Assembly (NCBI GenBank): GCA_016193315.1
Contig: JACPSJ010000001.1
Coordinates: 599,478-663,477, forward strand
Length of the DNA: 64,000 bases
Direction: 5' to 3'
Source of the DNA: Candidatus Kerfeldbacteria bacterium
Lineage (GTDB): Bacteria > Patescibacteriota > Patescibacteriia > SBBC01 > CAIJZX01
The translations under genes were made by a program, and so were the position numbers. Under the pieces are notes generated by a model. It did not search any database and was not told the DNA's origin. It saw only the letters and a list, made by a program, of their open reading frames with translations. Positions 1,010 through 27,949 of this stretch are shown piece after piece (within the stretch, counting starts at the first letter, position 1; every line of letters begins with the position of its first letter).

Positions 1010-1771
1010 TTGTGGATTTGCCTTTTTTTCGCTAAGGTGTGCTCACCGGCGGCAGCTCCCCGTATGACCCAAGATCGCGACTATAAAAACAATATCCTGC
1101 ACTTGCGCGACACCTCAAAGGTGCCAACGCAGGAGAACGGTGAATCGATGGTCCGGCTCCCGGCAGACATTCTCCGCCTGCAGTATGCGAAAACCGACAT
1201 GGTCCCCTTGTTAGGACATGACATGTTTGTCCGTCGACGCGTGGCGGAGAAGTTGATCGCTATCCAGCGGAGACTTGAGGCGCAAGATTCTCCTTACCAG
1301 CTCCACATCGTTTATGCCTACCGGGCTCCGGCAGTCCAAGCCAGATATTTCCAACGCGCGCTAAACCAGGTCCAGTCAGCCAATCAATCGCTGCCCCTGG
1401 AGGAGCAAATTGAACTGGCCCACAGCATGGCCGCCCACCCCAAGGTAGCAGGCCATCCTACCGGCGGGGCAGTTGACATCACGCTCTGGAATCGCGGCCC
1501 GCAGCTGCCCGTCGACATGGGATCGGATATTGCAGAATATGGCGACCCGGCCTATACATATTACCCGCATTTGACGAATGAGCGTCAAAAGCACCGTCAG
1601 TATTTGCAGGACCTGATGGTGGCTGAGCAGTTTGCTCCCTTCCTCGGAGAATGGTGGCACTTCAGCTACGGCGACAAAGAATGGGCTGCTTACTATCGCC
1701 AGCCAGCGGCCAGGTACGGACCTTTAGAGCTTGAGCGGGTCAAGCAATTCGTTCGGGTGTCCAGGTCCTAA
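1010..1771 (+). CDS. D-alanyl-D-alanine dipeptidase, VanX/DdpX (M15D) family
   Basis: Motifs 'HPTGGAVDITLW' (His/Asp zinc ligands) and 'EWWHFSYGD'. The ORF-track start at 1010 is TTG; the first ATG (MTQDRDYK...) is at 1064, so the true start is probably there. Confidence 0.75.
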   Translation: MWICLFFAKVCSPAAAPRMTQDRDYKNNILHLRDTSKVPTQENGESMVRLPADILRLQYAKTDMVPLLGHDMFVRRRVAEKLIAIQRRLEAQDSPYQLHIVYAYRAPAVQARYFQRALNQVQSANQSLPLEEQIELAHSMAAHPKVAGHPTGGAVDITLWNRGPQLPVDMGSDIAEYGDPAYTYYPHLTNERQKHRQYLQDLMVAEQFAPFLGEWWHFSYGDKEWAAYYRQPAARYGPLELERVKQFVRVSRS

Positions 1772-1777
1772 CTCGGT

Positions 1778-3352
1778 CTAACGCATCGGCCCGGTCGCCG
1801 ATACGACTGTCTCAGTTAGGGCTCCCGATCGCACGACCGCCACCGCCTGTTCCAGGTCGGGATACAAAACCCGGTCCCGCTCAAGCATTGACACGTGTCG
1901 CCGCAACAGCTCGTACGCGGCCCTAGTCCCCCGACCGAGCTTCTTACTGCCGCGCAGGTCGACGGCCTGGGCGGCCGTCAGCCACTCGATGGCCAAGACC
2001 TGTTCCACATTGCTGATAATATCGCGACACTTGCGTACCGCGATCGCCCCCATGCTGACGTGGTCTTCCTGATTGGCTGAAGTTGGAATCGAGTCGACGC
2101 TGGCCGGATGGGTCAAGATTTTGTTCTCCGAGACCAGGGCCGCGGCGGTGTACTGAGTAATCATGAAGCCATTGGACAACCCGGCCTGTGTCGGCGGGAT
2201 CAGAAAGGCGGGCAGACCTTCGTTTGTCGCCGGATCAACCAGCTTGGCGATCCGCCGTTCGCTGATATCGGCGAGTTCGGCCATGGCGATGCCGAGGTAG
2301 TCCGCGGTCAACGCCAACGGTTCGCCATGGAAGTTCCCGCCCGACAAGACCCGCTCCCGGTCGGCGAAAATAAGCGGATTATCCGTCGCCGCATTCAATT
2401 CGCGCTGGAGCACATCGGCCGCGTGCGTAACCGCGTCGCGGATCGCGCCGTGGACTTGCGGCAGGCAGCGCAGCGTGTACGAATCCTGAATTCGTGGCCA
2501 GTCTGGGTCGCGAGCTACTTCCTCGCTTCCCTCGGTCAACCGGCGGATGTTCTCGGCACTGACGGCATGGCCGGGGTGGGGCCGGAGGTTCGCAAACTCC
2601 TCGCGAGCGGCCACGACTGAGCCCTGCATCGCTTCCATGGTCAGTGCGCCGATGATGTCGGCCACCCACAACAGCTGGCGCGCACGATCAAGATTCAGGC
2701 TTTGGACGGCGGACATAAAGGCGGTGCCATTCGTCAAGGCCAGCCCTTCTTTGGCTTCCAATTGAACAGCGGTGGTGCCAGACGATTGCATGACAGCTTT
2801 GGCCGACTGACGTTGGCCATCAACAACCACCTCTCCCTCGCCCATCATGACGAGCGCCACGTGTGCCAGCGGCGCGAGATCGCCGCTCGCGCCAACGGAG
2901 CCCTGCTCCGGGACGAACGGGTGGACACCGTGATTGAGCATCCGGAGCAAGGTCTCAATCACCAGCGGCCGGACCCCGGAATACCCTTTGGCTAAGGAGT
3001 TAGCCCGGATCAGCATCATCGCCCGCACTTCCGGCACGGACAGCGCCGGGCCGACGCCGACCGCATGGCTACGGATGAGGTTGGCCTGCAGTTCCTTGAC
3101 GTGATCCGGCTCGATCCTCACCTTCTTAAAGTTCCCAAAACCAGTGGTCACGCCGTATACGACCCGTCGTTCGGCGATCAAGCGCTCAACAAAAGCACGC
3201 GCCGCCTTAACGGCGGCGACGGAATGTTCTGCCAGTTGGACTTTCGCATGGTGTCGGGATACCTCAATCACCTCGGCCAGCTGGAGCGATGAGCCATCAA
3301 TTGTGATTGCCGGTTGCGGTTTCATCAGCGGTTTGAATGATATCTCCGCCAT
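1778..3352 (-). CDS. hutH: Histidine ammonia-lyase (aromatic amino acid ammonia-lyase family)
   Basis: 524 aa with the MIO-forming 'GSVGASGDLAPLAHVA' Ala-Ser-Gly motif and similarity to HAL/PAL throughout. An alternative start lies at M10 (3325). Confidence 0.85.
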   Translation of the reverse strand: MAEISFKPLMKPQPAITIDGSSLQLAEVIEVSRHHAKVQLAEHSVAAVKAARAFVERLIAERRVVYGVTTGFGNFKKVRIEPDHVKELQANLIRSHAVGVGPALSVPEVRAMMLIRANSLAKGYSGVRPLVIETLLRMLNHGVHPFVPEQGSVGASGDLAPLAHVALVMMGEGEVVVDGQRQSAKAVMQSSGTTAVQLEAKEGLALTNGTAFMSAVQSLNLDRARQLLWVADIIGALTMEAMQGSVVAAREEFANLRPHPGHAVSAENIRRLTEGSEEVARDPDWPRIQDSYTLRCLPQVHGAIRDAVTHAADVLQRELNAATDNPLIFADRERVLSGGNFHGEPLALTADYLGIAMAELADISERRIAKLVDPATNEGLPAFLIPPTQAGLSNGFMITQYTAAALVSENKILTHPASVDSIPTSANQEDHVSMGAIAVRKCRDIISNVEQVLAIEWLTAAQAVDLRGSKKLGRGTRAAYELLRRHVSMLERDRVLYPDLEQAVAVVRSGALTETVVSATGPMR

Positions 3353-3466
3353 CGGCGCCCGTCAACGTCGCGCCATGAGAGGTTTGCTGCCGGCTGGCCG
3401 GCATTAATCTGGTTGTGAGCTTGATGCCCCTTGTCTCTAACGGGGCGGCGGGCTCAGAAAAGAAAA

Positions 3467-6319
3467 CTACACTCGTTTCGTTGACCCCACATGCGCCGCC
3501 GCCTCCCGACCGGAGGGCTGGAGCGTTTCGGTCGGCACGGTCAGCGGCAAGGTGAACTGAAACGTACTCCCCTTCCCCTCGCCCTCGGACTCAGCCCAGA
3601 TCCGACCGCCATGGGAGTCGATGATCGATTTGGCGATGAACAGCCCGAGGCCGGATCCGTCGGGCTGGATTTGGGCGATGCCGCTGCCGCGGACAAATTT
3701 GTTGAACAGTTCCGGCGCATCTTGCTTGCGGATGCCGATGCCGGTGTCCTTGACCGAGAAGCGGATCGTGCCGTCGGATACTTCCGCCCCAACGCTGATA
3801 CTCCCCTTCTCCGTATACTTGATGGCATTGTCGATCAGGTTGAGAATGACGTCTTGGAGCTTGTCGGCGTCAGCAAATACTTGCGGTAGTTTCGTTTTTG
3901 GCAGCTTGGTGATGATCTTCAAACCTTTGTCCACGGCGACCTTGCGAACCTCATCGATTTCTTTGGTAATCAAATCTTCCAGCTGCACCGGTGCTTTCTG
4001 ATAGGTAAACTTACCAGCTTCGATCTTGGAGACGTTGAGGAACTGGTTGATCAGCCGGATCATCCGGTCGGATTCAGACAGGAGATTCTGCAAAATGTCG
4101 ATGTGTTTCGGTTCCATCTTCCCGAAATCCCCCTGCGTCATCATCGACAAGTAGCCTTTGATGCCGGTCATCGGCGTTCGCAGCTGGTGCGAGGCGATCG
4201 AGACGAATTCGGATTTGGCCCGGTCGAGTTCCTTGAGGTGCTCGTTCGCTACTTCGAGTTGTTCGTTCGTTCGGCGAAGCTGGTCGAACAGCTTCAGGTT
4301 GCGGGCCACAACGCCAAGTTCGTCAGCCACCGACTGCATGGTCCCGAGTTCCTGCGGCGTAATCGCTTCTTTCGGTTTTTTCGTCCCGACCTCGATGACG
4401 CCGATGACGTTCCCTTCAGACACCACCGGCACCACGGCTAACGACTTGATGCCGACCACTTTTTGAATGGTGGCGGCCAGAATCTTCGGCAGCGGCGGGC
4501 AGACGATGTCGCTGACTTTCTCGGTCAGCTTGATCTGGCCGGTGCGGAGCACCTCGGCCTCCAGGTTCGTGTACTTCGGGTCGCTGAGGTCTGAGGTGTA
4601 TTCGGAGAAATGTTTCGGCAGGAGCCGCAGCGCCCGGCGGGTCAGGGTCGTTTCGGTGATGGCCCGGGCCCGGGTGGTGCGACCATCGTCATCGATAAAG
4701 ACGAGAATGGCGCCGAGGTAACCGAGCTCGGTGGCCACGGAATCGGCGATCTGCTGAACAACTTTGTTGAAGTCGAGCGTCCGGGTGATCTCCTTCGTCA
4801 AGTGCTGCAGGGTTTCGAGCGACACGTTTCGCTGACGGAGCTCGCCGGTAGCTTGCTCAACCTTAACTTTCAAGCTTTCGCTGAACTGCCTGACTTCCTC
4901 GAACAGATTGGCTTTTTGGATGGACGAACCGATCTGCGGCGACAGCACTTCGAGCAGTTGAAGATCATCGTTCGAAAAGCTGTCGCCGGAGAGTTTTTGG
5001 CCCAAGGTTAAAATAGCAATCAGCTTGCCCTGGGCGAAAATGGGGGCTACGAGTGCTGCGCCCATTCGTTCAAACTCTTCCTTTGACGCTACCAGCGGCT
5101 GGCGCTTATCTTCTGACGTGTCTTCGATCTTCCGCTCAAGAGATTCGATGAGCGACAGGTGTTCGTGCGCCCGGAGGAATTTGATCAGCGGGCTGTCGGC
5201 GCGAACGCTGAGGTTCGGGTTGTCCCGCAGCCGGTCGAAGAGGGCATCGAATTTCTCCGGGCCGTGATCGTTGCCGCGGCGGAGGAGGATGGCGGCCGCT
5301 TTGAGTTTCAAATCTTGCTGCAAGGTGGTTTCGAGTTTGGAAATGAGGACGGTCAAGTTAAGTTCAACGCTCAGGATTTCGGACAACGACCGCAGCACGG
5401 CTTGGTAGTTGACTTTGGCCTTGAAGAAGACTTTGTCCGTCACCCGCGACAGCCAGACTTTGAAAGGGTCGAGGCCGAAAACGATCAGGATGGCAACCAG
5501 GAAAGCGATGGTGTTGCGGCTGGCCGGAGTAGCGCCGAAGAATTGGGCCGAGGCGAACAGCACGAAAATGAATAGCAGGGCCACCAGAGTAACGAGAACA
5601 CCATATACCAGTGATCTTGTGACTATTAGTCTAATATCAAGAAGCCTGTGACGAACAATCGCGTACCCCGTAAGAGCCAAGAAGACCAAAACAGAATCTG
5701 AACCTACAGCGCTAAGTTCCTGTATCCCAATTGCGGGTAGCAAGATATTTGTGATTACAGAAATCGAAGCTGATATTGCGAGACCTAACAACAAATATCT
5801 TACCTGTAATTTGCTTATGCCTTTCGTTCGCCGATGAGTTTGGAAGATTCTGAAGAAGAACGTTACAAAGTAACCAATCAAGTACAGGGCGAATATCGGA
5901 TAGGCTCTTCCGTAGATGAACTCGGTGATGTCGGGCTGGAGACGCACTTCTCTCACGAGTAGTTGGGATGGTATGACAAACAGAAATAGTAGGGTTGGAA
6001 AATATAATGCGGCTATCCTCTTCCTCCCCAATCTAGTCCCCCACGGGAAGATCAACCCGAAATGCAGGAGCAGGGCTGGCATGATGATCGGACCGACAAA
6101 TACAATCTTACTGAGAATGAGTGCTGATGATGGACTTGTTGCACGGTCAACCAAGAAAGTCGAGCCGATCCAAAATCCCATGAATAGGGTGAGGAGTCCG
6201 AAGACAACTCCTTCTTCCGATTTGCGCCGCTGGATTAGAACATAGGCGCCAATAATAAGACACGCCACAACGGCGACCGCGGATAATAAGGAGATGGCGG
6301 AAAGTTCTAACTTGACCAA
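3467..6319 (-). CDS. Multi-TM (about 9 TM) - GAF - GAF sensor histidine kinase
   Basis: The N-terminal ~330 aa are strongly hydrophobic (7TM module plus 2 more TM). Two GAF-like regions follow, then H-box 'SHQLRTPMTGIKGYL', N-box 'NLIDNAIKYT', G1 'DTGIGI' and G2 'GSGLGL'. Its start overlaps the upstream ThiF-like gene by 13 nt. No cognate response regulator is in the window. Confidence 0.85.
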   Translation of the reverse strand: MVKLELSAISLLSAVAVVACLIIGAYVLIQRRKSEEGVVFGLLTLFMGFWIGSTFLVDRATSPSSALILSKIVFVGPIIMPALLLHFGLIFPWGTRLGRKRIAALYFPTLLFLFVIPSQLLVREVRLQPDITEFIYGRAYPIFALYLIGYFVTFFFRIFQTHRRTKGISKLQVRYLLLGLAISASISVITNILLPAIGIQELSAVGSDSVLVFLALTGYAIVRHRLLDIRLIVTRSLVYGVLVTLVALLFIFVLFASAQFFGATPASRNTIAFLVAILIVFGLDPFKVWLSRVTDKVFFKAKVNYQAVLRSLSEILSVELNLTVLISKLETTLQQDLKLKAAAILLRRGNDHGPEKFDALFDRLRDNPNLSVRADSPLIKFLRAHEHLSLIESLERKIEDTSEDKRQPLVASKEEFERMGAALVAPIFAQGKLIAILTLGQKLSGDSFSNDDLQLLEVLSPQIGSSIQKANLFEEVRQFSESLKVKVEQATGELRQRNVSLETLQHLTKEITRTLDFNKVVQQIADSVATELGYLGAILVFIDDDGRTTRARAITETTLTRRALRLLPKHFSEYTSDLSDPKYTNLEAEVLRTGQIKLTEKVSDIVCPPLPKILAATIQKVVGIKSLAVVPVVSEGNVIGVIEVGTKKPKEAITPQELGTMQSVADELGVVARNLKLFDQLRRTNEQLEVANEHLKELDRAKSEFVSIASHQLRTPMTGIKGYLSMMTQGDFGKMEPKHIDILQNLLSESDRMIRLINQFLNVSKIEAGKFTYQKAPVQLEDLITKEIDEVRKVAVDKGLKIITKLPKTKLPQVFADADKLQDVILNLIDNAIKYTEKGSISVGAEVSDGTIRFSVKDTGIGIRKQDAPELFNKFVRGSGIAQIQPDGSGLGLFIAKSIIDSHGGRIWAESEGEGKGSTFQFTLPLTVPTETLQPSGREAAAHVGSTKRV

Positions 6320-7062
6320 ACTGCCTCCAGATCTACAGCTAGGTTTCTGGGGAACATTGGCAATCGATTGCCGGAGACCGCCCTTAACAGGACGAAGACT
6401 GCTAGGGCAGCAGTCAGTTCAGCTGCAATCCCAACCTGAGGTGTGTGTATCAACTTGCTCGTTCCCATTTGCTTAAATATTTTTGCGAAGTATTTAGGCA
6501 ATTTGTAGCGGCCACGCGTTTTGGACAGCAGAAGCCGAAAACCATGGATCTCGTCCGGAGATTCATGTTCCTTACGGAACATGCGGACATTGTTTTCATC
6601 AAAGACAGTTACGACGGATCCAAAACCAACATTAAGCGGGACGACTGCAATTTTCTTTCTTTCGGAGACAATCTCAAGAACTTCGAAAAACCCTCTAGAA
6701 AAATCGGCAGTATTGATAATTACGTTCGCCGCGCCCGCCACTCTTAGAATCTCACTTTTCATGGAAACGTATCTTCTAAAAACCTTGACTTGAGCCTGCG
6801 GGTTAATTGCCTTAATACGTCTTTTCAGTGAGCTGACCTTGGGCTTACCTAAGTCCCTGTGGTCAAACTCCTGCCTATTGAGATTACTTTTTTCCACCAT
6901 ATCACCGTCCACCAACACAAAATGTCGAAATCCAGTTCGTGCCGCCAGTACTGCGATGTTGCCACCCAACCCGCAACCCACAAAACAAAGCTTGAACTTT
7001 CCGAGCTTTTCCCCAAGACTCCTGCCAATAATCGGGATGTTTCGCAAAAAAAGGTGGTTCAT
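6307..7062 (-). CDS. ThiF/MoeB/HesA-family E1-like adenylyltransferase
   Basis: Rossmann 'FVGCGLGGNIAVLAA' and 'VLVDGDMVEKSNLNRQ' are hallmarks of ThiF-type adenylating enzymes. It lacks the C-terminal Cys/rhodanese extensions. It abuts the GNAT gene with a 0-nt gap. Confidence 0.7.
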   Translation of the reverse strand: MNHLFLRNIPIIGRSLGEKLGKFKLCFVGCGLGGNIAVLAARTGFRHFVLVDGDMVEKSNLNRQEFDHRDLGKPKVSSLKRRIKAINPQAQVKVFRRYVSMKSEILRVAGAANVIINTADFSRGFFEVLEIVSERKKIAVVPLNVGFGSVVTVFDENNVRMFRKEHESPDEIHGFRLLLSKTRGRYKLPKYFAKIFKQMGTSKLIHTPQVGIAAELTAALAVFVLLRAVSGNRLPMFPRNLAVDLEAVWSS

Positions 7063-7764
7063 CTAGTGAGGCGCATACTTATAGTCTTTGCCGTGTGCAT
7101 GCATTGAACCGTTTGAGAGGAACTTCAGCAATGATGCATTCCTTTCAACCATTTGTTCTTCCAACTCATTTACATGAATTAGGTACGGAGCCGTGATGCC
7201 CTGGTAGATCTTTGGCTTTCCAATTCTCTTAAATGGAATTCCGAGCTCTTCCAAATTGGGCGTCAAACGATCATCAAGCACGCAAAACACGTCGTTGATC
7301 GCCTGCTCCTTCACCAGGAGATAAATACCTTTTATCAGAACTAGTAAAAGATGCCTCCTGCGGTAGTTTCTCGCTACTATGAGTCTCGAGATTTCCGCTA
7401 CCGACGTGTCTCTAGGGATCTTGTAGTCTAAATCGAAATTGTTACTTATGGGTAGTCCGATCTCTGAACCAATAATTAACCTAGCAGTTGCTCCAAGAAC
7501 CCCGGACTTATGCCTGACAACCAAGTGGAAAGAATGGTTGTCGTACTGATCCTTTTCACGCTTGTCAGGATTTTTTTTTGCGTCTAGATAATGATACTCT
7601 TCACAGTAAACTTTGTATCTTATTCGATGTAACTCATCCAACTCCTCTACGTCTGAGGTTGTGTAAAAGGAAAAACTCTTGTAGACGCTGCGCTCCGCCA
7701 AGGCTAATTTTATCCTTCCAAGAAAGGGGGTTCGGATTAATGCTTCTAAAAAAAATGAAGGCAT
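7063..7764 (-). CDS. LuxI/FeeM-like GNAT-fold N-acyltransferase (N-acyl amino acid synthase / autoinducer synthase-like)
   Basis: 'LHRIRYKVYCEEYHYLD...DQYDNHSFHLVV' matches the R-x3-VF-x-EE-LGW...D-x-FD core shared by LuxI and FeeM/PEP-CTERM-associated N-acyl amino acid synthases. 'EISRLIVARNYRRRH' matches the conserved (S/T)RL-arginine region. Confidence 0.55.
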   Translation of the reverse strand: MPSFFLEALIRTPFLGRIKLALAERSVYKSFSFYTTSDVEELDELHRIRYKVYCEEYHYLDAKKNPDKREKDQYDNHSFHLVVRHKSGVLGATARLIIGSEIGLPISNNFDLDYKIPRDTSVAEISRLIVARNYRRRHLLLVLIKGIYLLVKEQAINDVFCVLDDRLTPNLEELGIPFKRIGKPKIYQGITAPYLIHVNELEEQMVERNASLLKFLSNGSMHAHGKDYKYAPH

Positions 7765-7766
7765 TT

Positions 7767-8444
7767 CTACTTCTTCAGGATGATGTAGGTTGTACTACCA
7801 ACCCAGAAGACTGAAAAAACGACGGAAATTAGTGGGTTCACACTAATTTCGTAAAAGACCGCCCACAGATTGAGACTTATCGCCGGGAGGCCGCCTAAGA
7901 CAACTCCCAACAAGAAAATTCGGGCGTTATTCTTCTGGAATCCACCAACAACTCTTTGTTTGTAAAACAACAATACTACGCTTGCGAAATAAAATGCTGA
8001 AACCACAAGTTGGTAGACCCCGAACATCGGGCCGGGTATCGGCCACCCGGCGATATTCGAGTTGACATTGTAGCCGCTGAAAATAGTTGATGTGAAAATA
8101 GCAACCAGGCTCAGAATGAAGGCCGGAAAATAAAGGAGTACTGCGTGTAGCTTGTCAAAAGTGAACGTTTTGTACGGGAAAAGAATAGCGAGGTGAACTA
8201 AACTTGTAACAATCACTGCTCCTGAAACAAACAAAACTTTAAGGAAGAGAGTAACCGTCGCGCTTGGGTCAACATAAGACGTGAGGCCGTTGAGAATTGC
8301 CCATGCGGCTGTACTAAACGCCAACAACGCCATCACTTTCCGAATCTCCTGTTTTTGGTGAGTGACCCAAAAGAACACCGCAAGGGCTAATTCCCCCGTG
8401 CCAACGAGGTAGGTAAGACCCAAGAGAATATTTTTCCCAATCAT
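7767..8444 (-). CDS. Stand-alone 7TM membrane module, paralog of the kinase N-terminal sensor (copy 1)
   Basis: Seven predicted TM helices and no soluble domain. It shares motifs with the HK N-terminus: 'HLAILFPYK' vs 'HFGLIFPWG', 'LLYFPAFIL' vs 'ALYFPTLLF', 'ARIFLLGVVLGG' vs 'VRYLLLGLAISA'. It ends '...TYIILKK', where the HK continues 'YAIVRHRLLD'. The ATG at 8444 makes an ATGA overlap with the copy-2 stop; the ORF extends to 8462. Confidence 0.7.
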   Translation of the reverse strand: MIGKNILLGLTYLVGTGELALAVFFWVTHQKQEIRKVMALLAFSTAAWAILNGLTSYVDPSATVTLFLKVLFVSGAVIVTSLVHLAILFPYKTFTFDKLHAVLLYFPAFILSLVAIFTSTIFSGYNVNSNIAGWPIPGPMFGVYQLVVSAFYFASVVLLFYKQRVVGGFQKNNARIFLLGVVLGGLPAISLNLWAVFYEISVNPLISVVFSVFWVGSTTYIILKK

Positions 8445-9112
8445 GGTTGTATAATGATCCATGTTACTAGCCCTAACCAGACTCCGCTCAGTACAGGAGC
8501 AATCAGGGTCGCATAACTAACTTGGAAACCAAAATTAAAAACACTGAAAATCAAACCGGGAACGCCAGGAATCAGGATTGCGCTAAGAAGTTTTTTTAAA
8601 TGACGGTGGTGCACCCCATCGCTACGTCGGATTTTTTGAATTAATAAACCGACCGAGGTAAGAAGGGCCAGCGTAAAGAAAATGATGTACAAGGAATACA
8701 AATCACCAGGAATAATCTGTCCCGTCGTATCAGGGGTAAGTTTGTACCCTTGGATAAAATCATCAGAGATGAAAAAGCTATAACTTAGCATGGCCGCGGG
8801 CAGGTAGAGAAGTATGCGGTGAAATCCGTCGAGGCGAATGGTGGGAAATGGAAAAAGTATGACAACATGCACCAGGGCAGTGATAAGAAAAAAGCTCGCA
8901 ATAAAAACCCAGGGTAACAGCAGGTCAACTAAATGGGAAGGTTCGCGGTAGGATGTAAGAGCATTCAATACGACCCATGCGCCAATGAAGAATGCAAGAA
9001 ATGCCATCACCTTCCTAATCTCCTGTTTTTGGTGAGTGACCCAAAAGAAAACTGCAAGGATTAACTCCCCTATCCCAACAAGGTACGTTGCTGTTAGCAG
9101 GATCGTTTTCAT
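8441..9112 (-). CDS. Stand-alone 7TM membrane module (copy 2)
   Basis: The N-terminal 60 aa are nearly identical to copy 1, including an 18-aa identical run 'AVFFWVTHQKQEIRKVMA'. It has 7 TM and the FP motif 'ILFPFP'. There are ATGA overlaps at both ends; the ORF extends to 9148. Confidence 0.7.
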   Translation of the reverse strand: MKTILLTATYLVGIGELILAVFFWVTHQKQEIRKVMAFLAFFIGAWVVLNALTSYREPSHLVDLLLPWVFIASFFLITALVHVVILFPFPTIRLDGFHRILLYLPAAMLSYSFFISDDFIQGYKLTPDTTGQIIPGDLYSLYIIFFTLALLTSVGLLIQKIRRSDGVHHRHLKKLLSAILIPGVPGLIFSVFNFGFQVSYATLIAPVLSGVWLGLVTWIIIQP

Positions 9113-9765
9113 TTCTTCAAAATAATGTAGCTCGTGAAGCCAAGCCAAATGGCCGAAAACAGAGAGCCGACATAGCCGATTTTACTGATGGCGACCAGGG
9201 GGTAAATGATGTCAAAAACAACCGACACGAGGAGGGACAGTCCGATACCGACTAAAATCATTTTTAGCATCCAGCGATGTTGCCCATCGCTTTTTGTAAA
9301 ACGGTAGACCAAGTTAGCAAGGGCCCAAATCCAGTAAGCAAAGAAAAAAATGAGCATGAACCAGAAATATGGGCCCGGCGAAGTCTGGTATCCTTTGATA
9401 TAGTCAATGACTCCGTTACCGCTCAAAAAAATACTAGTCCAGAAGATACCCGGGACAAAAACTGCTAACGGCCAAATAACATAAGGCAGGATTTCATTAA
9501 CCTTCTTTCTTGGTAATGGGAAGGTCCAACTGAACGGTAAAATGAAAATAGCGGTCATCAGGCCACCGAGCCAACCCATGCGCTCAGCGATGTAAAAGTT
9601 ATTTTGCATGTATCCCAAACCGTTAGAGGCAACGTAAAAGGAAATACCTAACGCAAACAACCCATACCACATGGTCGCCTGACTGCGTTGATAGCTAAAA
9701 ATCAGGTACAAGCCGAGGATGAATTCGGCCAAAGCGATAAGGAGAAGAATTATTCCAATGATCAT
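9109..9765 (-). CDS. Stand-alone 7TM membrane module (copy 3)
   Basis: 7 TM with 'FSWTFPLP' and 'WMLKMILVGIGLSL', ending '...TSYIILKK'. Its start overlaps the copy-4 stop in an ATGA. Confidence 0.7.
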   Translation of the reverse strand: MIIGIILLLIALAEFILGLYLIFSYQRSQATMWYGLFALGISFYVASNGLGYMQNNFYIAERMGWLGGLMTAIFILPFSWTFPLPRKKVNEILPYVIWPLAVFVPGIFWTSIFLSGNGVIDYIKGYQTSPGPYFWFMLIFFFAYWIWALANLVYRFTKSDGQHRWMLKMILVGIGLSLLVSVVFDIIYPLVAISKIGYVGSLFSAIWLGFTSYIILKK

Positions 9766-10424
9766 TTCTTCGCTACAATGTACGTCGAGAACCCAAAGAG
9801 CAAAGAAGCTGAGTAAATTCCGATTGGTATGCGTGGTCGGCCGGTGACTGGGATTAGGACATCAAAAATCAGTCCGGAGAGGACGGCCGCGATCAGCGCG
9901 ACCATGAACACTTTGATACTTCCCCACTGTGGACTCTGCACATACCGGAACTTCGTTACCAAATTCGCCAGCGACCATACCACGTAAACACTCACGAAGA
10001 TGGGAAAGACCCAAAAGAGCGGGCCATGAATTTCGTGCCAAAAACCATCGGCGAGAACAACATTTCGAATAAAACTTGGGTTGAAGAGTACGAGGGGAAG
10101 GAAAAATACAATTGGCAGTAGCAAGTACCACCTATCGTTTTTCGGGATTCGCTGTGAAGGAATCGGGAAGTACCAGGTGAAAAGCAACAAAAAAGAAAAC
10201 GTTGCAGCCCCGGCAAGGTATCCTAAGCGGGTCAAGAACAGGACGACTGGCGACTCTAAGTTCAGAAACAACGACCCCTGAATGATGGCGATGGCCGATA
10301 AGGCTGACAGAAATCCGGCATAATAGGTTATTGAAGGACTACGCTGGTAGCGCTGCACCATCCAGCCCGATAAAGAAAGCAGGCTGGCGGCCAGGATGAA
10401 CAGCGTGATCGTCCAAAGGTTCAT
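9762..10424 (-). CDS. Stand-alone 7TM membrane module (copy 4), first gene of the operon
   Basis: 7 TM with 'FTWYFPIP' and 'IKVFMVALIAAVLSG', ending '...STYIVAKK'. It is divergent but colinear with copies 1-3 and the HK N-terminus. Confidence 0.7.
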   Translation of the reverse strand: MNLWTITLFILAASLLSLSGWMVQRYQRSPSITYYAGFLSALSAIAIIQGSLFLNLESPVVLFLTRLGYLAGAATFSFLLLFTWYFPIPSQRIPKNDRWYLLLPIVFFLPLVLFNPSFIRNVVLADGFWHEIHGPLFWVFPIFVSVYVVWSLANLVTKFRYVQSPQWGSIKVFMVALIAAVLSGLIFDVLIPVTGRPRIPIGIYSASLLFGFSTYIVAKK

Positions 10425-10594
10425 GTCCGGAAAACAAGAAACAGCCCTGGCCGTTTGGGGGGCTGTGTTAGTATCCGTCGATCAGCGATGGCACTGAGCG
10501 CCAAAAAAATATTCATCGGCGGTAAGAAAAATGCGACGTGAATATAGCAAAAATCGGCCGAAAATGCAAGTGCGGTGTGAGCTTTGTCTCGAAC

Positions 10595-11857
10595 CTAGTT
10601 TAGCGGGTTTTCGAGCGCTGGTTCGCCGTTGACCTCGAGACTGACAAACCCAAACAGGGTGTCGCCGACTTTCAATGGTGAAGCACTGGCCGCGGAAGCA
10701 TTGACCGACCCACTATTTCCGCTCCCGAAATGCTGATCGTAGATTACCCGGTTTCTCTTTGTGATGATATCCCAAAGCTCGAGCCGTTCGGAATTGTAAC
10801 CTCCGTCGGAGTAAGGATAACTCATCACCGCATACCGGCCATCCTGTGATACGGCCTTTAGTTCACCTTTATCGAAAAGGGTCCGAGTTGTGTGGGTCAA
10901 GAAATCGCGATACTGTAATCCCTGATTGTAGCCTCGGCTAAAGAAGAAGCCTTGTCGATTGACAGGAAACCCGGATGGTGCGCCCGCAAACCGATCGATC
11001 GTCCTCACGATGCGTGTACGATAGTTGAACTCGACGTAGCCATTGGATTGGTTCGAACTGAAATTCCATTCAAATGCGAAGACCGTGTCCCGGTCAATCT
11101 GGTCAATGACTTGGTAGTTCGGCCCGTTAGAGGTTCCGTTCGTGTTCAAGTTGGTATAGACCAATTCCGCCACACCACTTTCTAAATCCGCAAGGTAGAA
11201 ATACTGCCCCGAGCGTTCCTGGGTGCCTTCCACGTCGATCAGCAGCTGGGTTGGCGTCAAGAAAGAAAGCAGAGCCTGATACCCGCCAAGTTCCGGATTC
11301 TTCAGGTTTTCCTTGTTGAAAGTATGCACCTTCCCGGTTTGGTAATCATAGACATTAACGACAAAGTCGGTGGGGCACGGACCATCCTCAACGGATTCAG
11401 TGCAGATAACGGCTGACTGAGCAAAGAAACGATCATCCGGGCTCATGATGGCTGAACCAGGGTAGATCGCATTCGGAATGATCGGCGGATTCGTTACCAC
11501 TTCGTCTCCGTTTGGGAGTACCCCAATCACCAGCGCCCCCAGGCCCGGTGACGAAAAGTTCGCCGACCCTGGCCCGAAGTTGTGGGTTCGAGTGAAGCGG
11601 TATCGATCCGGCTCGATGGGGGCCGGTAAGTATGTATTCCCCTTGGCTGGGCCAATTGCTTTCGGCCGACCATCGAACCCTGGTATGCGAAACAGTTGGA
11701 ACGACCCCCGCGGTGTACCATCGAACTGCTCCACCGTGCCTTTCGTGTAGTACAAGACCGGCACCGAAACTGGATTGGTCGGGGCCGACGACCGATCAAA
11801 CCAAAGCAAGCCCACCAAAGTGGCCGCGGCGAGGAAGATGGTGAGGTGCCATTTCAT
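10595..11857 (-). CDS. Secreted hypothetical protein, possibly beta-propeller-like
   Basis: N-terminal signal peptide 'MKWHLTIFLAAATLVGLLWF'. 420 aa rich in G/N/Y/T with no recognisable catalytic motif. Confidence 0.55.
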   Translation of the reverse strand: MKWHLTIFLAAATLVGLLWFDRSSAPTNPVSVPVLYYTKGTVEQFDGTPRGSFQLFRIPGFDGRPKAIGPAKGNTYLPAPIEPDRYRFTRTHNFGPGSANFSSPGLGALVIGVLPNGDEVVTNPPIIPNAIYPGSAIMSPDDRFFAQSAVICTESVEDGPCPTDFVVNVYDYQTGKVHTFNKENLKNPELGGYQALLSFLTPTQLLIDVEGTQERSGQYFYLADLESGVAELVYTNLNTNGTSNGPNYQVIDQIDRDTVFAFEWNFSSNQSNGYVEFNYRTRIVRTIDRFAGAPSGFPVNRQGFFFSRGYNQGLQYRDFLTHTTRTLFDKGELKAVSQDGRYAVMSYPYSDGGYNSERLELWDIITKRNRVIYDQHFGSGNSGSVNASAASASPLKVGDTLFGFVSLEVNGEPALENPLN

Positions 11858-11877
11858 CCTTCGGCGATCACTATCCT

Positions 11878-12405
11878 CTAGTTGGTGAAGGTTAGCTGGC
11901 TGCGCCCTTGCTCATACTGCGGCTGCGCAGCGCCGCCCGGATTGCTGACGCGAAACTCGTATAGGAAGCCTCTCTCCAGCACGTAGGTTCGGACTGACTC
12001 GATATCGACGCTTCCGACAATCCGCAACGCCTCACGACCATTGATCATCATCGCCCGCTCCTCAATCGGACTTTCGGCTGGTGACTTCTTGGCTTTCGCT
12101 TGCGCGTCTAGTGAGGTCCCGTCGGAACGAAAGACCTGAAGGTAGATGCCACCTTCCGGTGCGTTTCCATAGCCGGCACCCACCGCCCCTCTGTCGAAGA
12201 CGCCGGACATGGTCGGTCTTCCCAGCGACCCAAGTTGCGGGACGGGGTAGTTCACTGCTGGCTGGTTGGTGTTGGAATTCCGAAACGTCGTATTGGTATT
12301 CGTGGACGACGTTGAGTTTGATTGGGCGGTCTGCCAGAGGTAGGCACCAAGGCTAAGAAGCACGACCAGCCCGATGGCGGTGGAAATGGCTGATGAGACT
12401 CTCAT
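11878..12405 (-). CDS. Membrane-anchored extracytoplasmic hypothetical protein with an N/T/S-rich linker
   Basis: N-terminal TM 'AISTAIGLVVLLSLGAYLW' followed by a low-complexity 'NSTSSTNTNTTFRNSNTN' linker and a ~100-aa globular domain. Confidence 0.5.
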   Translation of the reverse strand: MRVSSAISTAIGLVVLLSLGAYLWQTAQSNSTSSTNTNTTFRNSNTNQPAVNYPVPQLGSLGRPTMSGVFDRGAVGAGYGNAPEGGIYLQVFRSDGTSLDAQAKAKKSPAESPIEERAMMINGREALRIVGSVDIESVRTYVLERGFLYEFRVSNPGGAAQPQYEQGRSQLTFTN

Positions 12406-12441
12406 GAACCATACTTAGAGAACTCCAACCAATGCTTTGAA

Positions 12442-13131
12442 CTACCCTTCCAACATTGTTCTCACCATTGCGTCAAAGGTAGACCGGATGGTGGTCAATT
12501 CCTCCCCGGACGCACTATTGTATCCCCGGCCGTCCAACGAATACTCTTGGCCGTCGGGATAGGTGACCTTGCAGACTCGATCGTATTTCGTGTTGTAGCA
12601 GGTTAGTTTCCGACCCGACACTTCACCCACGATTTCATCAGATTCGACCTGCAAGTCCGGCGCAACCTGCTCGCGAAAATCAAACGTGTATGCCGGTTCG
12701 ATCGGCGCCGTCTGGGGATCGGGTGGGATACGTTGTACCACGAAGGCGGGTGCGTCCTGGCTTCCTTCGCATGGCTCATCTTCAAGCAAGTAAGCCGTTT
12801 CAGTTCCGACCGTAGAGGCGCACGCCGCATAGGCTGGATTGTATCTGAAGCAAACCGTGTCGGCCAGGCAGTGCTCAGGCCAGCTCGACGTCTGGGGCTG
12901 TCCGAAAGCGGTGGAATACTGAACTTGGCGCCCCGTCATCGTAACCGCCGAGACAAGATCGGTCCGTCCGGTTGTATTGGCGTTAGCGATGTCAAGCGGA
13001 GCATTTGTGTTTGCGCTATTGGTGTTTTGTGAGTTCGTTCCCTGCGGCCAGGCAACGGTCCAGAGATAGCCGCCAACACCAACGGCCACCACCACGCCGA
13101 GGGTTATTAGTAATGTTTGAGACGTCTTCAT
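12442..13131 (-). CDS. Membrane-anchored extracytoplasmic hypothetical protein (N-terminal paralog of 11878..12405)
   Basis: Same architecture: TM 'LLITLGVVVAVGVGGYLW' then a 'NSQNTNSANTN' linker, and a Cys-containing C-terminal domain. Confidence 0.5.
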   Translation of the reverse strand: MKTSQTLLITLGVVVAVGVGGYLWTVAWPQGTNSQNTNSANTNAPLDIANANTTGRTDLVSAVTMTGRQVQYSTAFGQPQTSSWPEHCLADTVCFRYNPAYAACASTVGTETAYLLEDEPCEGSQDAPAFVVQRIPPDPQTAPIEPAYTFDFREQVAPDLQVESDEIVGEVSGRKLTCYNTKYDRVCKVTYPDGQEYSLDGRGYNSASGEELTTIRSTFDAMVRTMLEG

Positions 13132-15433: not shown

Positions 15434-15470
15434 CCGTTGCCCGGGGAAGCAGCGGCTCTTTTTTATACGA
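15434..15470 (+). terminator. Rho-independent terminator
   Basis: Stem 'ccgttgc', loop 'ccggggaa', stem 'gcagcgg' (one G-U pair), then 'ctctttttt', immediately after the stop at 15431-15433. Confidence 0.6.
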
Positions 15471-15600
15471 GGAAGATCGCGCCTCTCCTCTGGTAACAGT
15501 TGGCTACCGGGATATATGCTCACAGTGTTTTACTACTCGATCGCATGGGGCTGAAAATGCCTCAGTTTATGGATATTGGCTCGCCTATGCGTTCGGTGCA

Positions 15601-16215: not shown

Positions 16216-16240
16216 TGCTCCTCCCGTTGTAAGAAGAGGT

Positions 16241-17074: not shown

Positions 17075-17360
17075 GGCACAACTCCTTTCTGTGGTTGCGG
17101 CTGGTTGCCCCTTGGATAGTGGACACGATGCCGCGGAGGTCGAACTGCCGTTTTTGACACCTTCCCATGTTGTAAGGTGCTGGCGAACCCGTTGCCTCCG
17201 TTCGAGACAACACAAAGCAAGCCTGACGCGTGGTTGGATTTGCCCAAACCACGCCCCGTTGGGCAAACGGTCCTCACCAGCATGGCGAACGCAAAAACCG
17301 GAGGCCCGACGCTGAAGTCCCTTGTGGAGAACTTCAGAACCAAGCCACCGGTTCTGAAGT
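17075..17360 (-). promoter_or_regulatory. Conserved ~250-nt structured 5' leader with a terminal inverted repeat (copy B)
   Basis: Duplicate of 14093..14345. It has the perfect IR 'cttcagaacc aagccacc ggttctgaag' at 17331-17358 and a T5 run ('ccggttttt' on the coding strand) 30 nt downstream. Confidence 0.4.
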
Positions 17361-17418
17361 TATTGTAAACCTATGTGTGAGCCGGTCAAGTGGAAAACCC
17401 AGCTGGTGACGACTTTTA

Positions 17419-17450: not shown

Positions 17451-17476
17451 CGCGCCAGAGCCATCCACAGCGCACC

Positions 17477-27948: not shown

Positions 27949-27949
27949 C

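What the first reader, a model, noticed from the sequence alone, without database searches (positions are those of the whole stretch)
3467..10424. Seven-gene operon: four tandem stand-alone 7TM modules, a LuxI/FeeM-like N-acyltransferase, a ThiF-like E1 and a multi-TM/GAF histidine kinase
Seen directly: seven minus-strand genes are packed with ATGA overlaps or gaps of 2 nt or less (7TM module 4 through 1, GNAT, ThiF-like, HK). The four 7TM modules are colinear with each other and with the first ~230 aa of the kinase. All share the FP-containing helix 3 ('ILFPYK', 'ILFPFP', 'FTWYFPIP', 'LIFPWG'), a 'LYFP'/'LLYLP' helix 4 and an 'R(I/Y)(F/L)LLG' helix 6. Each module stops at '...Y(I/A)(I/V)xKK', exactly where the kinase continues with 'YAIVRHRLLD' into its cytoplasmic GAF-GAF-HisKA-HATPase part. 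The modules are therefore receptor domains severed from any output domain, in four diverged copies placed ahead of the full-length receptor-kinase. Between them sit a GNAT with the LuxI/FeeM N-acyl-transferase core ('R..VY.EE...L....D.YD') and a ThiF/MoeB-type adenylating enzyme. Inference: a self-contained small-molecule signalling module. The GNAT would make an N-acylated amino acid or AHL-like lipid signal, the E1 might activate it, and the 7TM kinase would sense it, with the stand-alone 7TM copies acting as decoys, co-receptors or transporters. By established knowledge the kinase architecture and the acyltransferase family recall PrsK and the N-acyl amino acid synthase associated with PEP-CTERM/exosortase loci. 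But no exosortase, PEP-CTERM protein or response regulator is present in this window.
Basis: partly seen in the sequence, partly recalled or inferred. Interest (0 to 1): 0.85.

Follow-up and report, generated by a model that had tools for sequence, protein, structure and literature searches.

The report
Signal-lipid operon with extra 7TM receptors
A tiny-genome (CPR, Kerfeldbacteria) bacterium carries a conserved seven-gene operon that most likely makes a fatty-acyl-amino-acid-derived signal and senses it with a membrane kinase, which is preceded by four kinase-less copies of its own GPCR-shaped sensor; this offers a candidate receptor for a lipid class whose biological role is still unknown.

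Summary

The cluster is rare: 11 of about 185,000 species genomes, with Patescibacteria the only lineage credibly named. Its gene order is conserved down to 40% GNAT identity. GNAT plus kinase form the core. ThiF is usual but can be replaced by a PaaK-like adenylating enzyme or a methyltransferase. In a syntenic locus, the GNAT+ThiF pair is replaced by a CqsA-like enzyme.

An acyltransferase paired with a ThiF-like enzyme is the established logic of acyl-oxazolone pathways (OxzAB, TyzACB, TrzAS), but the oxidase found in those pathways is missing here. The nearest solved ThiF (AclA, 9EGB) also neighbours a FeeM-like enzyme and a LuxR-type regulator.

The best reading is a lipid-autoinducer synthase with its cognate receptor kinase and accessory co-receptors. 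The synthase-kinase pairing in CPR was already noted in 2020. The ThiF step and the 7TM arrays were not. It is not a PEP-CTERM/PrsK system. No experiment supports any of the proposed functions.

The parts
10541..10569 (-). Possible sigma-70-like promoter upstream of the first gene: -35 TTGCAT (10569-10564), 17-nt spacer, -10 TATATT (10546-10541)
   Evidence: Read directly from the 170-nt intergenic region. It falls below the consensus scan's threshold, so the evidence is weak.
9762..10424 (-). M4: stand-alone HisKA_7TM module, 220 aa (M4 ortholog type)
   Evidence: PF16927, E 2.8e-8, 34.3 bits. Orthologs in L010 (46% identity) and L012 (31%) occupy the same first position. Its stop overlaps the M3 start (ATGA).
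9109..9765 (-). M3: stand-alone HisKA_7TM module, 218 aa (M3 ortholog type, the most widely kept)
8441..9112 (-). M2: stand-alone HisKA_7TM module, 223 aa from the ATG at 9112 (M1/M2 ortholog type)
   Evidence: PF16927 at 27.9 bits, just under the 28.6 cutoff. 42% identical to M1. ATGA overlap with the M3 stop.
7767..8444 (-). M1: stand-alone HisKA_7TM module, 225 aa from the ATG at 8444 (M1/M2 ortholog type)
   Evidence: PF16927, E 4.8e-8. Orthologs at 43-51% identity sit directly upstream of the GNAT in L002, L004, L010 and L012.
7063..7764 (-). FeeM/LuxI-fold N-acyl amino acid synthase-type GNAT, 233 aa
   Evidence: PF13444 E 1e-14, PF21926 FeeM E 9e-14. TIGR03694 at 125.5 bits, above the 111.95 cutoff. 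Best PDB match by profile is BjaI, an AHL synthase that uses an acyl-CoA donor, E 1e-5. Only 23 homologs in 5.8 billion proteins.
6307..7062 (-). ThiF-like adenylating enzyme, 251 aa: adenylation domain only, with no peptide-clamp/RRE, no nitroreductase domain and no CxxC motif
   Evidence: PF00899, E 6e-25. GCGLGG, D52, SNLNRQ, K75 and the TAD Asp (D120) are present; they are invariant among its closest database homologs and mostly conserved across the wider clade. Closest solved structure is AclA of Tenacibaculum discolor (9EGB): sequence E 2e-23 over the full length; Foldseek E 5e-20, TM 0.85.
3467..6319 (-). Sensor histidine kinase, 950 aa: HisKA_7TM (aa 7-225; nt 5645-6301), two further TM helices (nt 5444-5614), GAF (nt 4910-5392), GAF (nt 4310-4777), HisKA (nt 4013-4219), HATPase_c (nt 3539-3871)
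   Evidence: Pfam. H-box SHQLRTP is present. The TTG start has a GGAGG upstream. The sensor half's best NCBIfam match is PrsK TIGR02916, but at only 47.5 bits against a cutoff of 300.
3389..3402 (-). GC-rich hairpin (GCCGGCCAGCCGGC) in the 114-nt spacer between the kinase and hutH. It has no U-tract, so the 3' end of the operon is uncertain.
   Evidence: Read from the sequence. Not called as a terminator by the scan.

Best explanation
This is a self-contained lipid-signal production and sensing module of a CPR bacterium (Candidatus Kerfeldbacteria).

Step 1 (family assignment shown, chemistry inferred). The GNAT, a FeeM/TIGR03694-type N-acyl amino acid synthase, transfers a fatty acyl group to an amino acid. 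The donor is probably acyl-CoA made from scavenged fatty acids.

Step 2 (inferred by analogy with OxzB, TyzB and TrzS). The translationally coupled ThiF-like enzyme uses ATP to adenylate the carboxylate of that N-acyl amino acid. This drives an intramolecular cyclisation, or capture by another nucleophile, and gives a cyclised, AHL-like head group such as a saturated oxazolone, lactone or lactam. No flavin oxidase is present, so the product would not be the desaturated oxazolone of the known pathways.

Step 3 (inferred from conserved operon linkage). The lipid partitions into or crosses the membrane and is bound by the GPCR-shaped 7TM domain of the kinase. The kinase relays through its two GAF domains to HisKA/HATPase. 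In relatives it then signals to a receiver-only response regulator; in this genome the regulator must be encoded elsewhere.

Step 4 (inferred). The four kinase-less 7TM paralogs belong to three ancient ortholog types kept in a fixed order. They act as accessory receptor subunits that assemble with the kinase's own 7TM domain or tune it, widening or gating ligand specificity. In this respect they resemble the 2-4 tandem modules that other kinases of this family carry in one polypeptide.
For: Family assignments.

Homology and fold:
- Modules against the kinase sensor: hhalign 99.9%, E 6.7e-34.
- GPCR-like 7TM fold predicted with confidence for M3, with no transporter or enzyme fold among the top hits.
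- N-out/C-in topology, with the cytoplasmic face more conserved than the outer face (0.49 vs 0.44, p=0.013). That pattern fits a shared intracellular partner and variable ligands.

Conserved linkage:
- GNAT plus 7TM-GAF kinase in 11 of 11 loci long enough to tell.
- ThiF in 11 of 14.
- Kinase-less 7TM paralogs in about 12 of 14.
- Receiver-only RR in 5 of 11.
- Module types keep a fixed order.

Variable tailoring genes at the ThiF position point to small-molecule biosynthesis: a PaaK-like adenylate-forming enzyme (L016), SAM methyltransferases (L010, L020), and a FadD-like fatty-acid ligase directly upstream of the GNAT (L018).

Cassette swap: L023 is syntenic with L018 but has an alpha-oxoamine-synthase/CqsA-like enzyme in place of GNAT+ThiF, next to the same kinase family and spare modules.

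Precedent for the enzyme pair: OxzAB, TyzACB and TrzAS, in which the ThiF-like enzyme cyclises the N-acyl amino acid ATP-dependently and a saturated cyclised intermediate is observed.

The nearest solved ThiF (AclA) lies beside a remote FeeM-like protein (hhalign 81%, E 1e-5), a LuxR-family regulator and fatty-acid synthesis genes.

Multi-module kinases (2x and 4x 7TM) exist in this family.

Independent literature flagged LuxI-homolog/kinase pairs in CPR as candidate quorum-sensing systems.
Against: - There is no experimental evidence for any step.
- No response regulator lies within 64 kb, so the output is unknown.
- The ThiF is not demonstrably orthologous to TyzB, OxzB or TrzS (Rv1355c-family model at 27 bits against a cutoff of 476).
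- Every characterised oxazolone pathway has a nitroreductase-family oxidase, and none is present here. A saturated oxazolone would be chemically labile.
- ThiF is dispensable in 3 of 14 loci, so it is not part of the minimal system.
- The fused 4x kinases are not orthologous module-for-module to M1-M4, and they lack GNAT/ThiF neighbours. They support the idea only by analogy.
- A kinase next to a biosynthetic gene could regulate the pathway in response to some other cue, rather than sense its product.
- The GPCR-fold match rests on a predicted model of one module and on 7-10% sequence identity.
Confidence: 0.55

Rival explanations
1. Envelope-lipid remodelling rather than signalling. The GNAT (with or without ThiF) makes lipoamino acids that serve as structural or protective membrane lipids in a bacterium that cannot build normal phospholipids. 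The 7TM kinase and its paralogs sense membrane state or scavenged host lipids and regulate this pathway.
For: The GNAT gives weak hits to the ornithine-lipid N-acyltransferase OlsB (E 2e-5). The TrzAS authors suggest C12 tyrazolones could occur in membranes, and they found tryptazolones more abundant inside cells than in the supernatant. The FadD-like ligase and alpha/beta-hydrolase neighbours in L018 and L023 fit lipid scavenging. No response regulator is nearby.
Against: The OlsB scores are far below cutoff, while TIGR03694 and FeeM are above theirs. The synthase cassette is interchangeable with a CqsA-like enzyme, a family the CPR survey treats as an autoinducer synthase. The cluster is very rare (11 of about 185,000 species genomes), which fits poorly with a core membrane function. 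The extreme divergence of the receptor paralogs suggests ligand diversity.
Confidence: 0.2
2. The receptors listen to something else. The 7TM array and kinase sense exogenous host- or community-derived lipids (eavesdropping). The GNAT/ThiF product is an output or effector aimed at the host, not the kinase's ligand.
For: CPR bacteria are thought to depend on hosts, and the 2020 CPR survey proposes eavesdropping and host manipulation. Multi-module kinases of the same family occur without any GNAT/ThiF neighbour, so the receptors do not need this synthase. N-acyl tyrosine derivatives with antimicrobial activity are cited.
Against: GNAT and kinase are linked in 11 of 11 informative loci and are translationally coupled in one operon. 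That is the classic arrangement of a cognate synthase/receptor pair.
Confidence: 0.15
3. A peptide or protein is the ThiF substrate: a microcin-C/pantocin-like RiPP system, or ubiquitin-like activation or anti-phage E1 system, with the GNAT as a tailoring or immunity acetyltransferase.
For: After AclA, the next-best solved relatives of the ThiF are MccB (E 2e-9) and PaaA. PADLOC E1-E2 profiles match its adenylation core. L008/L009 have radical-SAM/SPASM genes and small ORFs nearby.
Against: The protein is only 251 aa and begins directly with the adenylation domain; the alignment to MccB starts at MccB residue ~110, so there is no peptide clamp or RRE. No precursor-like ORF or GG-terminated ThiS/MoaD-like ORF was found. 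There is no E2, JAB or Ubl partner. The GNAT and modules have no PADLOC hit. The GNAT is an N-acyl amino acid synthase type, not an MccE-like acetyltransferase. No exporter gene is present.
Confidence: 0.04
4. A PEP-CTERM/exosortase-associated regulatory module (PrsK plus its acyltransferase).
For: The GNAT passes TIGR03694. The kinase's sensor half aligns colinearly with PrsK TIGR02916 (residues 15-476 against 5-466).
Against: The PrsK score is 47.5 bits against a cutoff of 300. The window has no exosortase among the ORFs scanned, no PEP-CTERM tails and no sigma-54-type PrsR. In relatives the RR is receiver-only. The titles that name a specific lineage are all Patescibacteria or Parcubacteria, a group generally regarded as lacking an outer membrane (my background knowledge).
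Confidence: 0.02
5. The stand-alone modules are decaying fragments of duplicated kinase genes, or gene-calling artefacts.
For: They end exactly where the kinase continues. Intermediate forms (7TM plus a GAF-like region, without a kinase, 456-486 aa) exist in relatives.
Against: They are intact ORFs with ATGA coupling. Three ortholog types are kept in fixed order across genomes whose modules are only 31-61% identical. M3 gives a confident, complete 7TM model. Among the closest 146 new representatives of the family, 89 are stand-alone single modules.
Confidence: 0.02

Closest known systems
Acyl-oxazolone pathways: OxzA/OxzB (Pseudoalteromonas rubra), TyzA/TyzB/TyzC and TrzA/TrzS (Mycobacterium tuberculosis)
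   Same: A FeeM/BjaI-fold N-acyltransferase makes an N-acyl amino acid from acyl-CoA. An adjacent ThiF-like enzyme adenylates its carboxylate and cyclises it. TyzB, like the enzyme here, is a stand-alone ThiF-like protein.
   Different: All known pathways include a nitroreductase-family flavin oxidase, either fused or adjacent. None is present here or in any relative's neighbourhood. The ThiF here is not a close relative of TrzS (27 bits on the Rv1355c-family model). None of the papers I read reports a dedicated receptor for the known systems, and their physiological role is called 'a major unresolved question'. Here the pair is operonic with a receptor kinase.
AclA cluster of Tenacibaculum discolor and marine relatives (PDB 9EGB/9EGC/9EGD, released 2025)
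   Same: AclA is the closest solved relative of the window's ThiF over its full length (E 2e-23; TM 0.85). Its relatives also neighbour a remote FeeM-like protein (hhalign 81%, E 1e-5) and a regulator.
   Different: The regulator is a cytoplasmic LuxR/GerE-type protein, not a 7TM kinase. Dedicated FabA-like/KAS/SDR/ACP/AcpS genes accompany it. AclA's reaction is unknown to me, because no paper is in the searchable library.
Autoinducer synthase plus membrane sensor-kinase pairs: CqsA/CqsS, and LuxM/LuxN of Vibrio (the latter from my own knowledge); and the 'LuxI homolog/putative sensory kinase' pairs listed for CPR by Bernard et al. 2020
   Same: A lipid-signal synthase gene sits next to a multi-pass membrane histidine kinase thought to bind that lipid. 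The CPR survey lists 18 such LuxI-homolog pairs, including Kerfeldbacteria. L023 shows the same kinase family next to a CqsA-like enzyme.
   Different: The synthase here classifies as an N-acyl amino acid synthase (TIGR03694), not as an AHL synthase; there is no PF00765 hit at E<=0.1. There is an extra ThiF step. The sensor is HisKA_7TM-GAF-GAF. Up to four kinase-less sensor paralogs are co-encoded. None of these features appears in the 2020 paper.
PrsK / TIGR03694 acyltransferase of PEP-CTERM/exosortase loci
   Same: The acyltransferase family is the same (above cutoff). The kinase has the same overall layout of a multi-TM N-terminus, GAF and kinase, and aligns colinearly with PrsK.
   Different: The kinase is far below the PrsK cutoff. 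No exosortase, PEP-CTERM substrates or PrsR were found. The host phylum is different.
Eukaryotic GPCR 7TM domains, especially class C (GABA-B) receptors
   Different: Sequence identity is only 7-10% and no common ancestry is shown. There is no G protein; the output is a covalently attached or separate histidine kinase. This is a structural analogy only. The further parallel, that GABA-B works as a heteromer of related 7TM subunits, comes from my own knowledge.

Membership tests
HisKA_7TM (PF16927) sensor domain family | Match to the Pfam model above the gathering score (28.6 bits), full length | tested here: met
   Kinase N-terminus 51.8 bits, M1 33.5, M3 37.7, M4 34.3. M2 is 27.9, marginally below, but is 42% identical to M1. 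The module profile matches the kinase N-terminus profile at hhalign 99.9%.
N-acyl amino acid synthase (FeeM / Acetyltransf_5 / TIGR03694) | Scores above the curated cutoffs of PF21926, PF13444 and TIGR03694 | tested here: met
   52.0 vs 27, 55.6 vs 22.4, and 125.5 vs 111.95.
N-acyl amino acid synthase (FeeM / Acetyltransf_5 / TIGR03694) | Catalyses N-acylation of an amino acid from acyl-ACP or acyl-CoA | not testable with these tools
   Needs expression and LC-MS.
LuxI-type AHL synthase (PF00765 Autoind_synth) | Match to the Autoind_synth or TraI-type models above cutoff | tested here: not met
   No PF00765 hit at E<=0.1 for the window protein. TraI model 15.7 bits against a cutoff of 250. More distant cluster members do carry precomputed PF00765 hits. 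Profile match to BjaI is only E 1e-5.
Acyl-oxazolone pathway (OxzAB / TyzACB / TrzAS) | N-acyltransferase of the FeeM/BjaI fold adjacent to a ThiF-like enzyme with an intact adenylation site | tested here: met
   0-nt gap between the genes. GxGxxG, D52, SNLNRQ, K75 and the TAD Asp are present.
Acyl-oxazolone pathway (OxzAB / TyzACB / TrzAS) | Nitroreductase-superfamily flavin-dependent oxidase, fused to ThiF or encoded nearby | tested here: not met
   The ThiF is 251 aa with a single domain. No such family appears among the operon genes, the window ORFs scanned or the relatives' neighbourhoods.
Acyl-oxazolone pathway (OxzAB / TyzACB / TrzAS) | ThiF component orthologous to TyzB, OxzB or TrzS | tested here: inconclusive
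   Rv1355c (TrzS) family model at 27.4 bits against 476. The nearest solved structure is AclA instead.
PEP-CTERM/exosortase system (PrsK, PrsR, EpsH, PEP-CTERM proteins) | Kinase is a PrsK equivalog (TIGR02916 >= 300 bits) | tested here: not met
   47.5 bits, E 1e-12, although the alignment is colinear.
PEP-CTERM/exosortase system (PrsK, PrsR, EpsH, PEP-CTERM proteins) | Exosortase, PEP-CTERM substrates and a sigma-54-type PrsR regulator present | tested here: not met
   None found in the 64-kb window. The RR of relatives is receiver-only, 138-143 aa. The rest of the genome could not be examined.
RiPP ThiF-like enzymes (MccB, PaaA, GrcB) | N-terminal peptide-clamp/RRE domain and a precursor-peptide gene | tested here: not met
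   The alignment to MccB begins at MccB residue ~110 and at query residue 17. No candidate precursor or GG-tail ORF was found.
E1-E2 (Cap2/Bil-type) anti-phage systems | E1 fused or adjacent to E2 and JAB, and a target or Ubl protein | tested here: not met
   PADLOC hits cover only the ~130-aa E1 core of ~580-aa profiles. There are no hits for the neighbouring genes.
Two-component system | Cognate response regulator | tested here: not met
   None in the window. One is present immediately after the kinase in L002, L004, L010, L019 and L020.

The most novel reading that the evidence does not exclude
The four kinase-less modules and the kinase's own sensor assemble into a hetero-oligomeric, GPCR-shaped receptor array, a bacterial counterpart of class-C GPCR heteromers. 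The array decodes one or several ThiF-cyclised N-acyl amino acid signals (saturated oxazolone, lactone or lactam head groups). This would be the first dedicated receptor system for the oxazolone/N-acyl-amino-acid lipid class, and a LuxI-independent route to AHL-like signals, used by an ultra-small CPR bacterium to talk to its own kind or to its host.
Probability: 0.25. Interest if true: 0.85.

Novelty: new variant of a known kind. Interest (0 to 1): 0.62.

Why it matters
1. N-acyl amino acids and acyl-oxazolones are made by many bacteria, including M. tuberculosis, yet their physiological role is called 'a major unresolved question'. Here the same enzyme logic is hard-wired to a receptor kinase. 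That gives a concrete, testable ligand-receptor hypothesis.

2. CPR/Patescibacteria have minimal genomes and are thought to depend on hosts. A conserved seven-gene investment in making and sensing a lipid points to a communication channel that may matter for their lifestyle.

3. Arrays of kinase-less, GPCR-shaped sensor paralogs, and kinases with 2-4 fused sensors, form an unexplored receptor architecture in two-component signalling. I found no description of them in the papers I could search.

4. The ThiF clade (with AclA) would extend the very short list of ThiF-like enzymes that act on small molecules. The 2025 review knows of only one.

Tried and rejected
- **Recent horizontal transfer.** The operon's GC is 45% against 57% for the window, but the same ~10-point dip occurs in every relative. 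It is a property of the cluster, not evidence of recent acquisition here.
- **Strict Rosetta-stone argument.** The window's M1-M4 do not map module-for-module onto the fused 4x kinases, which expanded independently and lack GNAT/ThiF neighbours. They are kept only as an analogy.
- **Defence system.** PADLOC gives only partial E1-core hits.
- **RiPP or Ubl substrate.** No precursor or GG-tail ORF and no clamp domain.
- **Riboswitch or leader RNA upstream.** Rfam finds only a tRNA elsewhere in the window.
- **Promoter and terminator scans.** No more hits than in shuffled sequence. The hand-read promoter is weak evidence.
- **Identifying AclA's reaction.** Four literature searches found nothing.
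- **Response regulator in the window.** tblastn and an HMM both found nothing.
- **Direct comparison with TyzB and OxzB.** Not possible, because their sequences were not retrievable with these tools.
- **dN/dS on the modules.** Not attempted: orthologs with DNA available are 31-61% identical, so synonymous sites are saturated.
- **MAG labels.** The 'uncultured Gammaproteobacteria' titles of several TPA MAGs were judged mislabels. L011 is the same contig as L004, whose neighbourhood matches the other cluster-bearing loci.

Full report
**What is there**

Window 3467-10424 holds seven minus-strand ORFs. Their junctions show translational coupling. M4/M3, M3/M2 and M2/M1 have ATGA overlaps, using the internal ATGs at 9112 and 8444. 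M1/GNAT has a 2-nt gap and GNAT/ThiF has none. The kinase's TTG start at 6319 has a GGAGG 5 nt upstream and overlaps ThiF by 13 nt. A weak promoter-like pair (TTGCAT, 17 nt, TATATT) lies in the 170-nt spacer upstream of M4. A GC-rich hairpin without a U-tract lies between the kinase and the downstream hutH gene. No known RNA family is present.

**Family assignments**

- All four small proteins and the kinase N-terminus match Pfam HisKA_7TM. M2 falls 0.7 bit below the cutoff but is 42% identical to M1.
- The kinase continues with two more TM helices, two GAF regions, HisKA and HATPase_c, and has a normal H-box.
- The GNAT matches Acetyltransf_5 and FeeM. It exceeds the curated cutoff of TIGR03694 (125.5 vs 111.95 bits) and gives no Autoind_synth hit.
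- The 251-aa ThiF protein is a bare adenylation domain. It carries GCGLGG, D52, SNLNRQ, K75 and the TAD aspartate. These are invariant among its closest database homologs and mostly conserved across the wider clade. It has no CxxC motif, no conserved Cys and no extra domain.

**Are the modules really severed sensors?**

**Source and distribution**

M3 is 100% identical to MBI2984615.1 of a Candidatus Kerfeldbacteria MAG, on an 857-kb contig. The GNAT clade has only 23 detectable homologs in 5.8 billion proteins. It occurs in 11 loci among 185,579 species genomes. The titles that name a specific lineage say Patescibacteria or Parcubacteria; several automated TPA MAG titles say 'Gammaproteobacteria', which I judge to be mislabels.

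**Conservation of the cluster**

I annotated about 14 distinct loci.

- GNAT plus a 7TM-GAF-GAF kinase occurs in all 11 loci that extend far enough.
- ThiF occurs in 11 of 14.
- Kinase-less 7TM paralogs lie upstream in about 12 of 14. They are either short (7TM only) or long (7TM plus 2 TM plus a GAF-like region, 456-486 aa).
- A receiver-only response regulator follows the kinase in 5 of 11 loci.
- The window has no receiver domain at all.

In the close clade the modules fall into three ortholog types in a fixed order: M4-type, M3-type, M1/M2-type, then GNAT. Identity is 31-61% within a type and about 20-27% between types. They are therefore old, maintained paralogs. The operon's low GC (45% vs 57%) recurs in all relatives.

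**Informative variants**

- In L016, ThiF is replaced by a PaaK/F390-synthetase-like adenylate-forming enzyme.
- In L020 it is replaced by a small-TM/methyltransferase fusion, and in L004 by a 101-aa membrane protein.
- L010 adds a SAM methyltransferase.
- L018 has a FadD-like fatty-acid ligase directly upstream of the GNAT.
- L023 is syntenic with L018: modules, asparaginase, a 19x-aa protein, an alpha/beta hydrolase and FadD. It carries an alpha-oxoamine-synthase (CqsA-like) gene plus an unknown 247-aa gene in place of GNAT+ThiF, next to the same kinase family.

This pattern of swappable synthase and tailoring cassettes beside a constant receptor is what a small-molecule signal/receptor locus would show.

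**How the enzyme pair probably works**

An N-acyltransferase of the FeeM/BjaI fold plus a ThiF-like enzyme is the established acyl-oxazolone route. OxzA, TyzA and TrzA acylate an amino acid from acyl-CoA. The ThiF-like OxzB, TyzB and TrzS adenylate the carboxylate and cyclise it. In TrzS, cyclisation comes first and a saturated cyclised intermediate is observed.

All of those systems also have a nitroreductase-family oxidase. None exists here or near any relative. So membership of that pathway family fails on one defining feature, while the 'works like' claim for the first two steps stands.

The window's ThiF is closest, over its full length, to AclA of Tenacibaculum discolor (PDB 9EGB-D; sequence E 2e-23; Foldseek TM 0.85). 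MccB, PaaA, TcdA and ThiF are far more distant. I could not find AclA's publication. Its metagenomic relatives sit beside a LuxR/GerE regulator and a 228-aa protein that is a remote homolog of this GNAT family (hhalign 81%, E 1.2e-5). In one locus FabA-like/KAS/SDR/ACP/AcpS genes follow. So this ThiF clade recurrently travels with a FeeM-like acyltransferase and a regulator.

**What the spare modules probably do**

An exhaustive profile search of 1.84 billion representatives found 8,227 relatives. Among the closest 146 new ones, 89 are single stand-alone modules, 19 have two modules, and 3 are kinases with four tandem modules ahead of PAS-HisKA-HATPase; the one of these with a source name is from a Patescibacteria MAG. 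Multiple 7TM modules feeding one kinase is therefore a recurrent design.

The fused modules are not orthologous one-to-one with M1-M4, and those kinases lack GNAT/ThiF neighbours. This is analogy, not a split-gene proof.

The modules have a receptor-like fold, a conserved cytoplasmic face, variable outer loops and a fixed gene order. On that basis I favour accessory receptor subunits or co-receptors over decoys, and both over transporters.

**Comparison with the known**

- The kinase's sensor half aligns colinearly with PrsK (TIGR02916) but scores 47.5 bits against a cutoff of 300.
- The window has no exosortase among the ORFs scanned, no PEP-CTERM tail and no PrsR. It is not a PEP-CTERM system.
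- PADLOC gives only partial E1-core matches.
- There is no peptide clamp, precursor or Ubl partner.
- Bernard et al. 2020 already listed 18 'LuxI homolog/putative sensory kinase' adjacencies in CPR, including Kerfeldbacteria, as candidate quorum-sensing systems. They do not mention ThiF or 7TM paralogs.

**Verdict**

This is a new variant of a known kind: an autoinducer synthase with a membrane sensor kinase.

Three features distinguish it:
- an N-acyl-amino-acid synthase coupled to a ThiF-type activating or cyclising enzyme, without the usual oxidase;
- a HisKA_7TM-GAF-GAF kinase;
- an array of ancient kinase-less, GPCR-shaped sensor paralogs.

Everything functional remains inference. The missing response regulator, the unknown product and the unknown role of the spare modules are the main gaps.

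Noticed in passing
window 6307-10424 vs the rest; L002, L004, L006, L008: The operon is about 10 GC points below its flanks in this genome (0.45 vs 0.57) and in every relative examined (for example 0.38 vs 0.49). In the window the kinase gene is intermediate (0.54). The cause is unknown; it could be membrane-protein composition or a mobile history of the cluster.
   Followed up: partly
window 27337-29008 (-): An asparaginase-family gene and an adjacent 203-aa gene with no Pfam family are homologs of a gene pair that lies inside the signalling cluster in L018 and L023. An asparaginase also lies upstream of the cluster in L006. Here the pair is about 17 kb away from the operon.
   Followed up: partly
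L023:6601-16684: The same kinase family and three kinase-less 7TM genes flank a FadD-like ligase, an alpha-oxoamine synthase (CqsA-like, Aminotran_1_2) and an unknown 247-aa protein, in place of GNAT+ThiF. This looks like a synthase-cassette swap within a syntenic frame shared with L018.
   Followed up: partly
L016:10680-12404; L010:7343-8059; L020:10678-11712; L018:4772-6484: Variant tailoring genes sit at or near the ThiF position: a PaaK/F390-synthetase-like enzyme, SAM methyltransferases (one fused to a small TM domain), and a FadD-like fatty-acid ligase.
   Followed up: partly
L006:10693-11169, L010:6879-7343, L013:6914-7378, L017:10585-11055; L004:10711-11016: A small multi-TM protein (~155 aa; 101 aa in L004) with no Pfam or NCBIfam family lies between GNAT and ThiF in several relatives but is absent from the window. 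Its function is unknown; an exporter or immunity role is possible.
   Followed up: no
P0074, P0091, P0104; loci L021:8001-12596, L022:8001-12686: Giant kinases (1495-1561 aa; one is named as from a Patescibacteria MAG) carry four tandem HisKA_7TM modules. Each is followed by a second 7TM kinase and a response regulator, in a conserved NusA/trigger-factor/ClpP/RNase Y neighbourhood.
   Followed up: partly
L008/L009:4382-6044 and 15431-18631: Radical-SAM/SPASM genes, a methyltransferase and several 45-65-aa ORFs flank the cluster in the most distant relative. This may be an unrelated RiPP-like locus.
   Followed up: no
L024-L029 (marine metagenome contigs): Relatives of AclA (PDB 9EGB) lie in a conserved mini-cluster with a LuxR/GerE regulator and a remote FeeM-like protein. 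In L026 it continues with FabA-like, KAS, SDR, ACP and AcpS genes. This looks like a Bacteroidota lipid-signal locus.
   Followed up: partly
window 57884-63973 (+), runs off the window end: A giant surface protein of more than 2029 aa, with VWA, nine SpaA-like prealbumin-fold repeats and DUF11 repeats.
   Followed up: no
window 1010-3352: A histidine/aromatic amino acid ammonia-lyase (1778-3352, -) lies 114 nt downstream of the kinase on the same strand. A VanX-like D-Ala-D-Ala dipeptidase (1010-1771, +) is next to it. Whether hutH is co-transcribed with the operon is unknown.
   Followed up: no
window 10595-13131 (-): Three consecutive genes upstream of the operon (420, 175 and 229 aa) have an N-terminal TM or signal segment, and two have Asn/Thr-rich low-complexity linkers. 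None has a Pfam family. They are probably secreted or surface proteins.
   Followed up: no
L010, L011, L018, L019 record titles: Several TPA MAG assemblies carrying this cluster are titled 'uncultured Gammaproteobacteria bacterium'. L011 is the same contig as L004. These titles are likely taxonomic mislabels.
   Followed up: no
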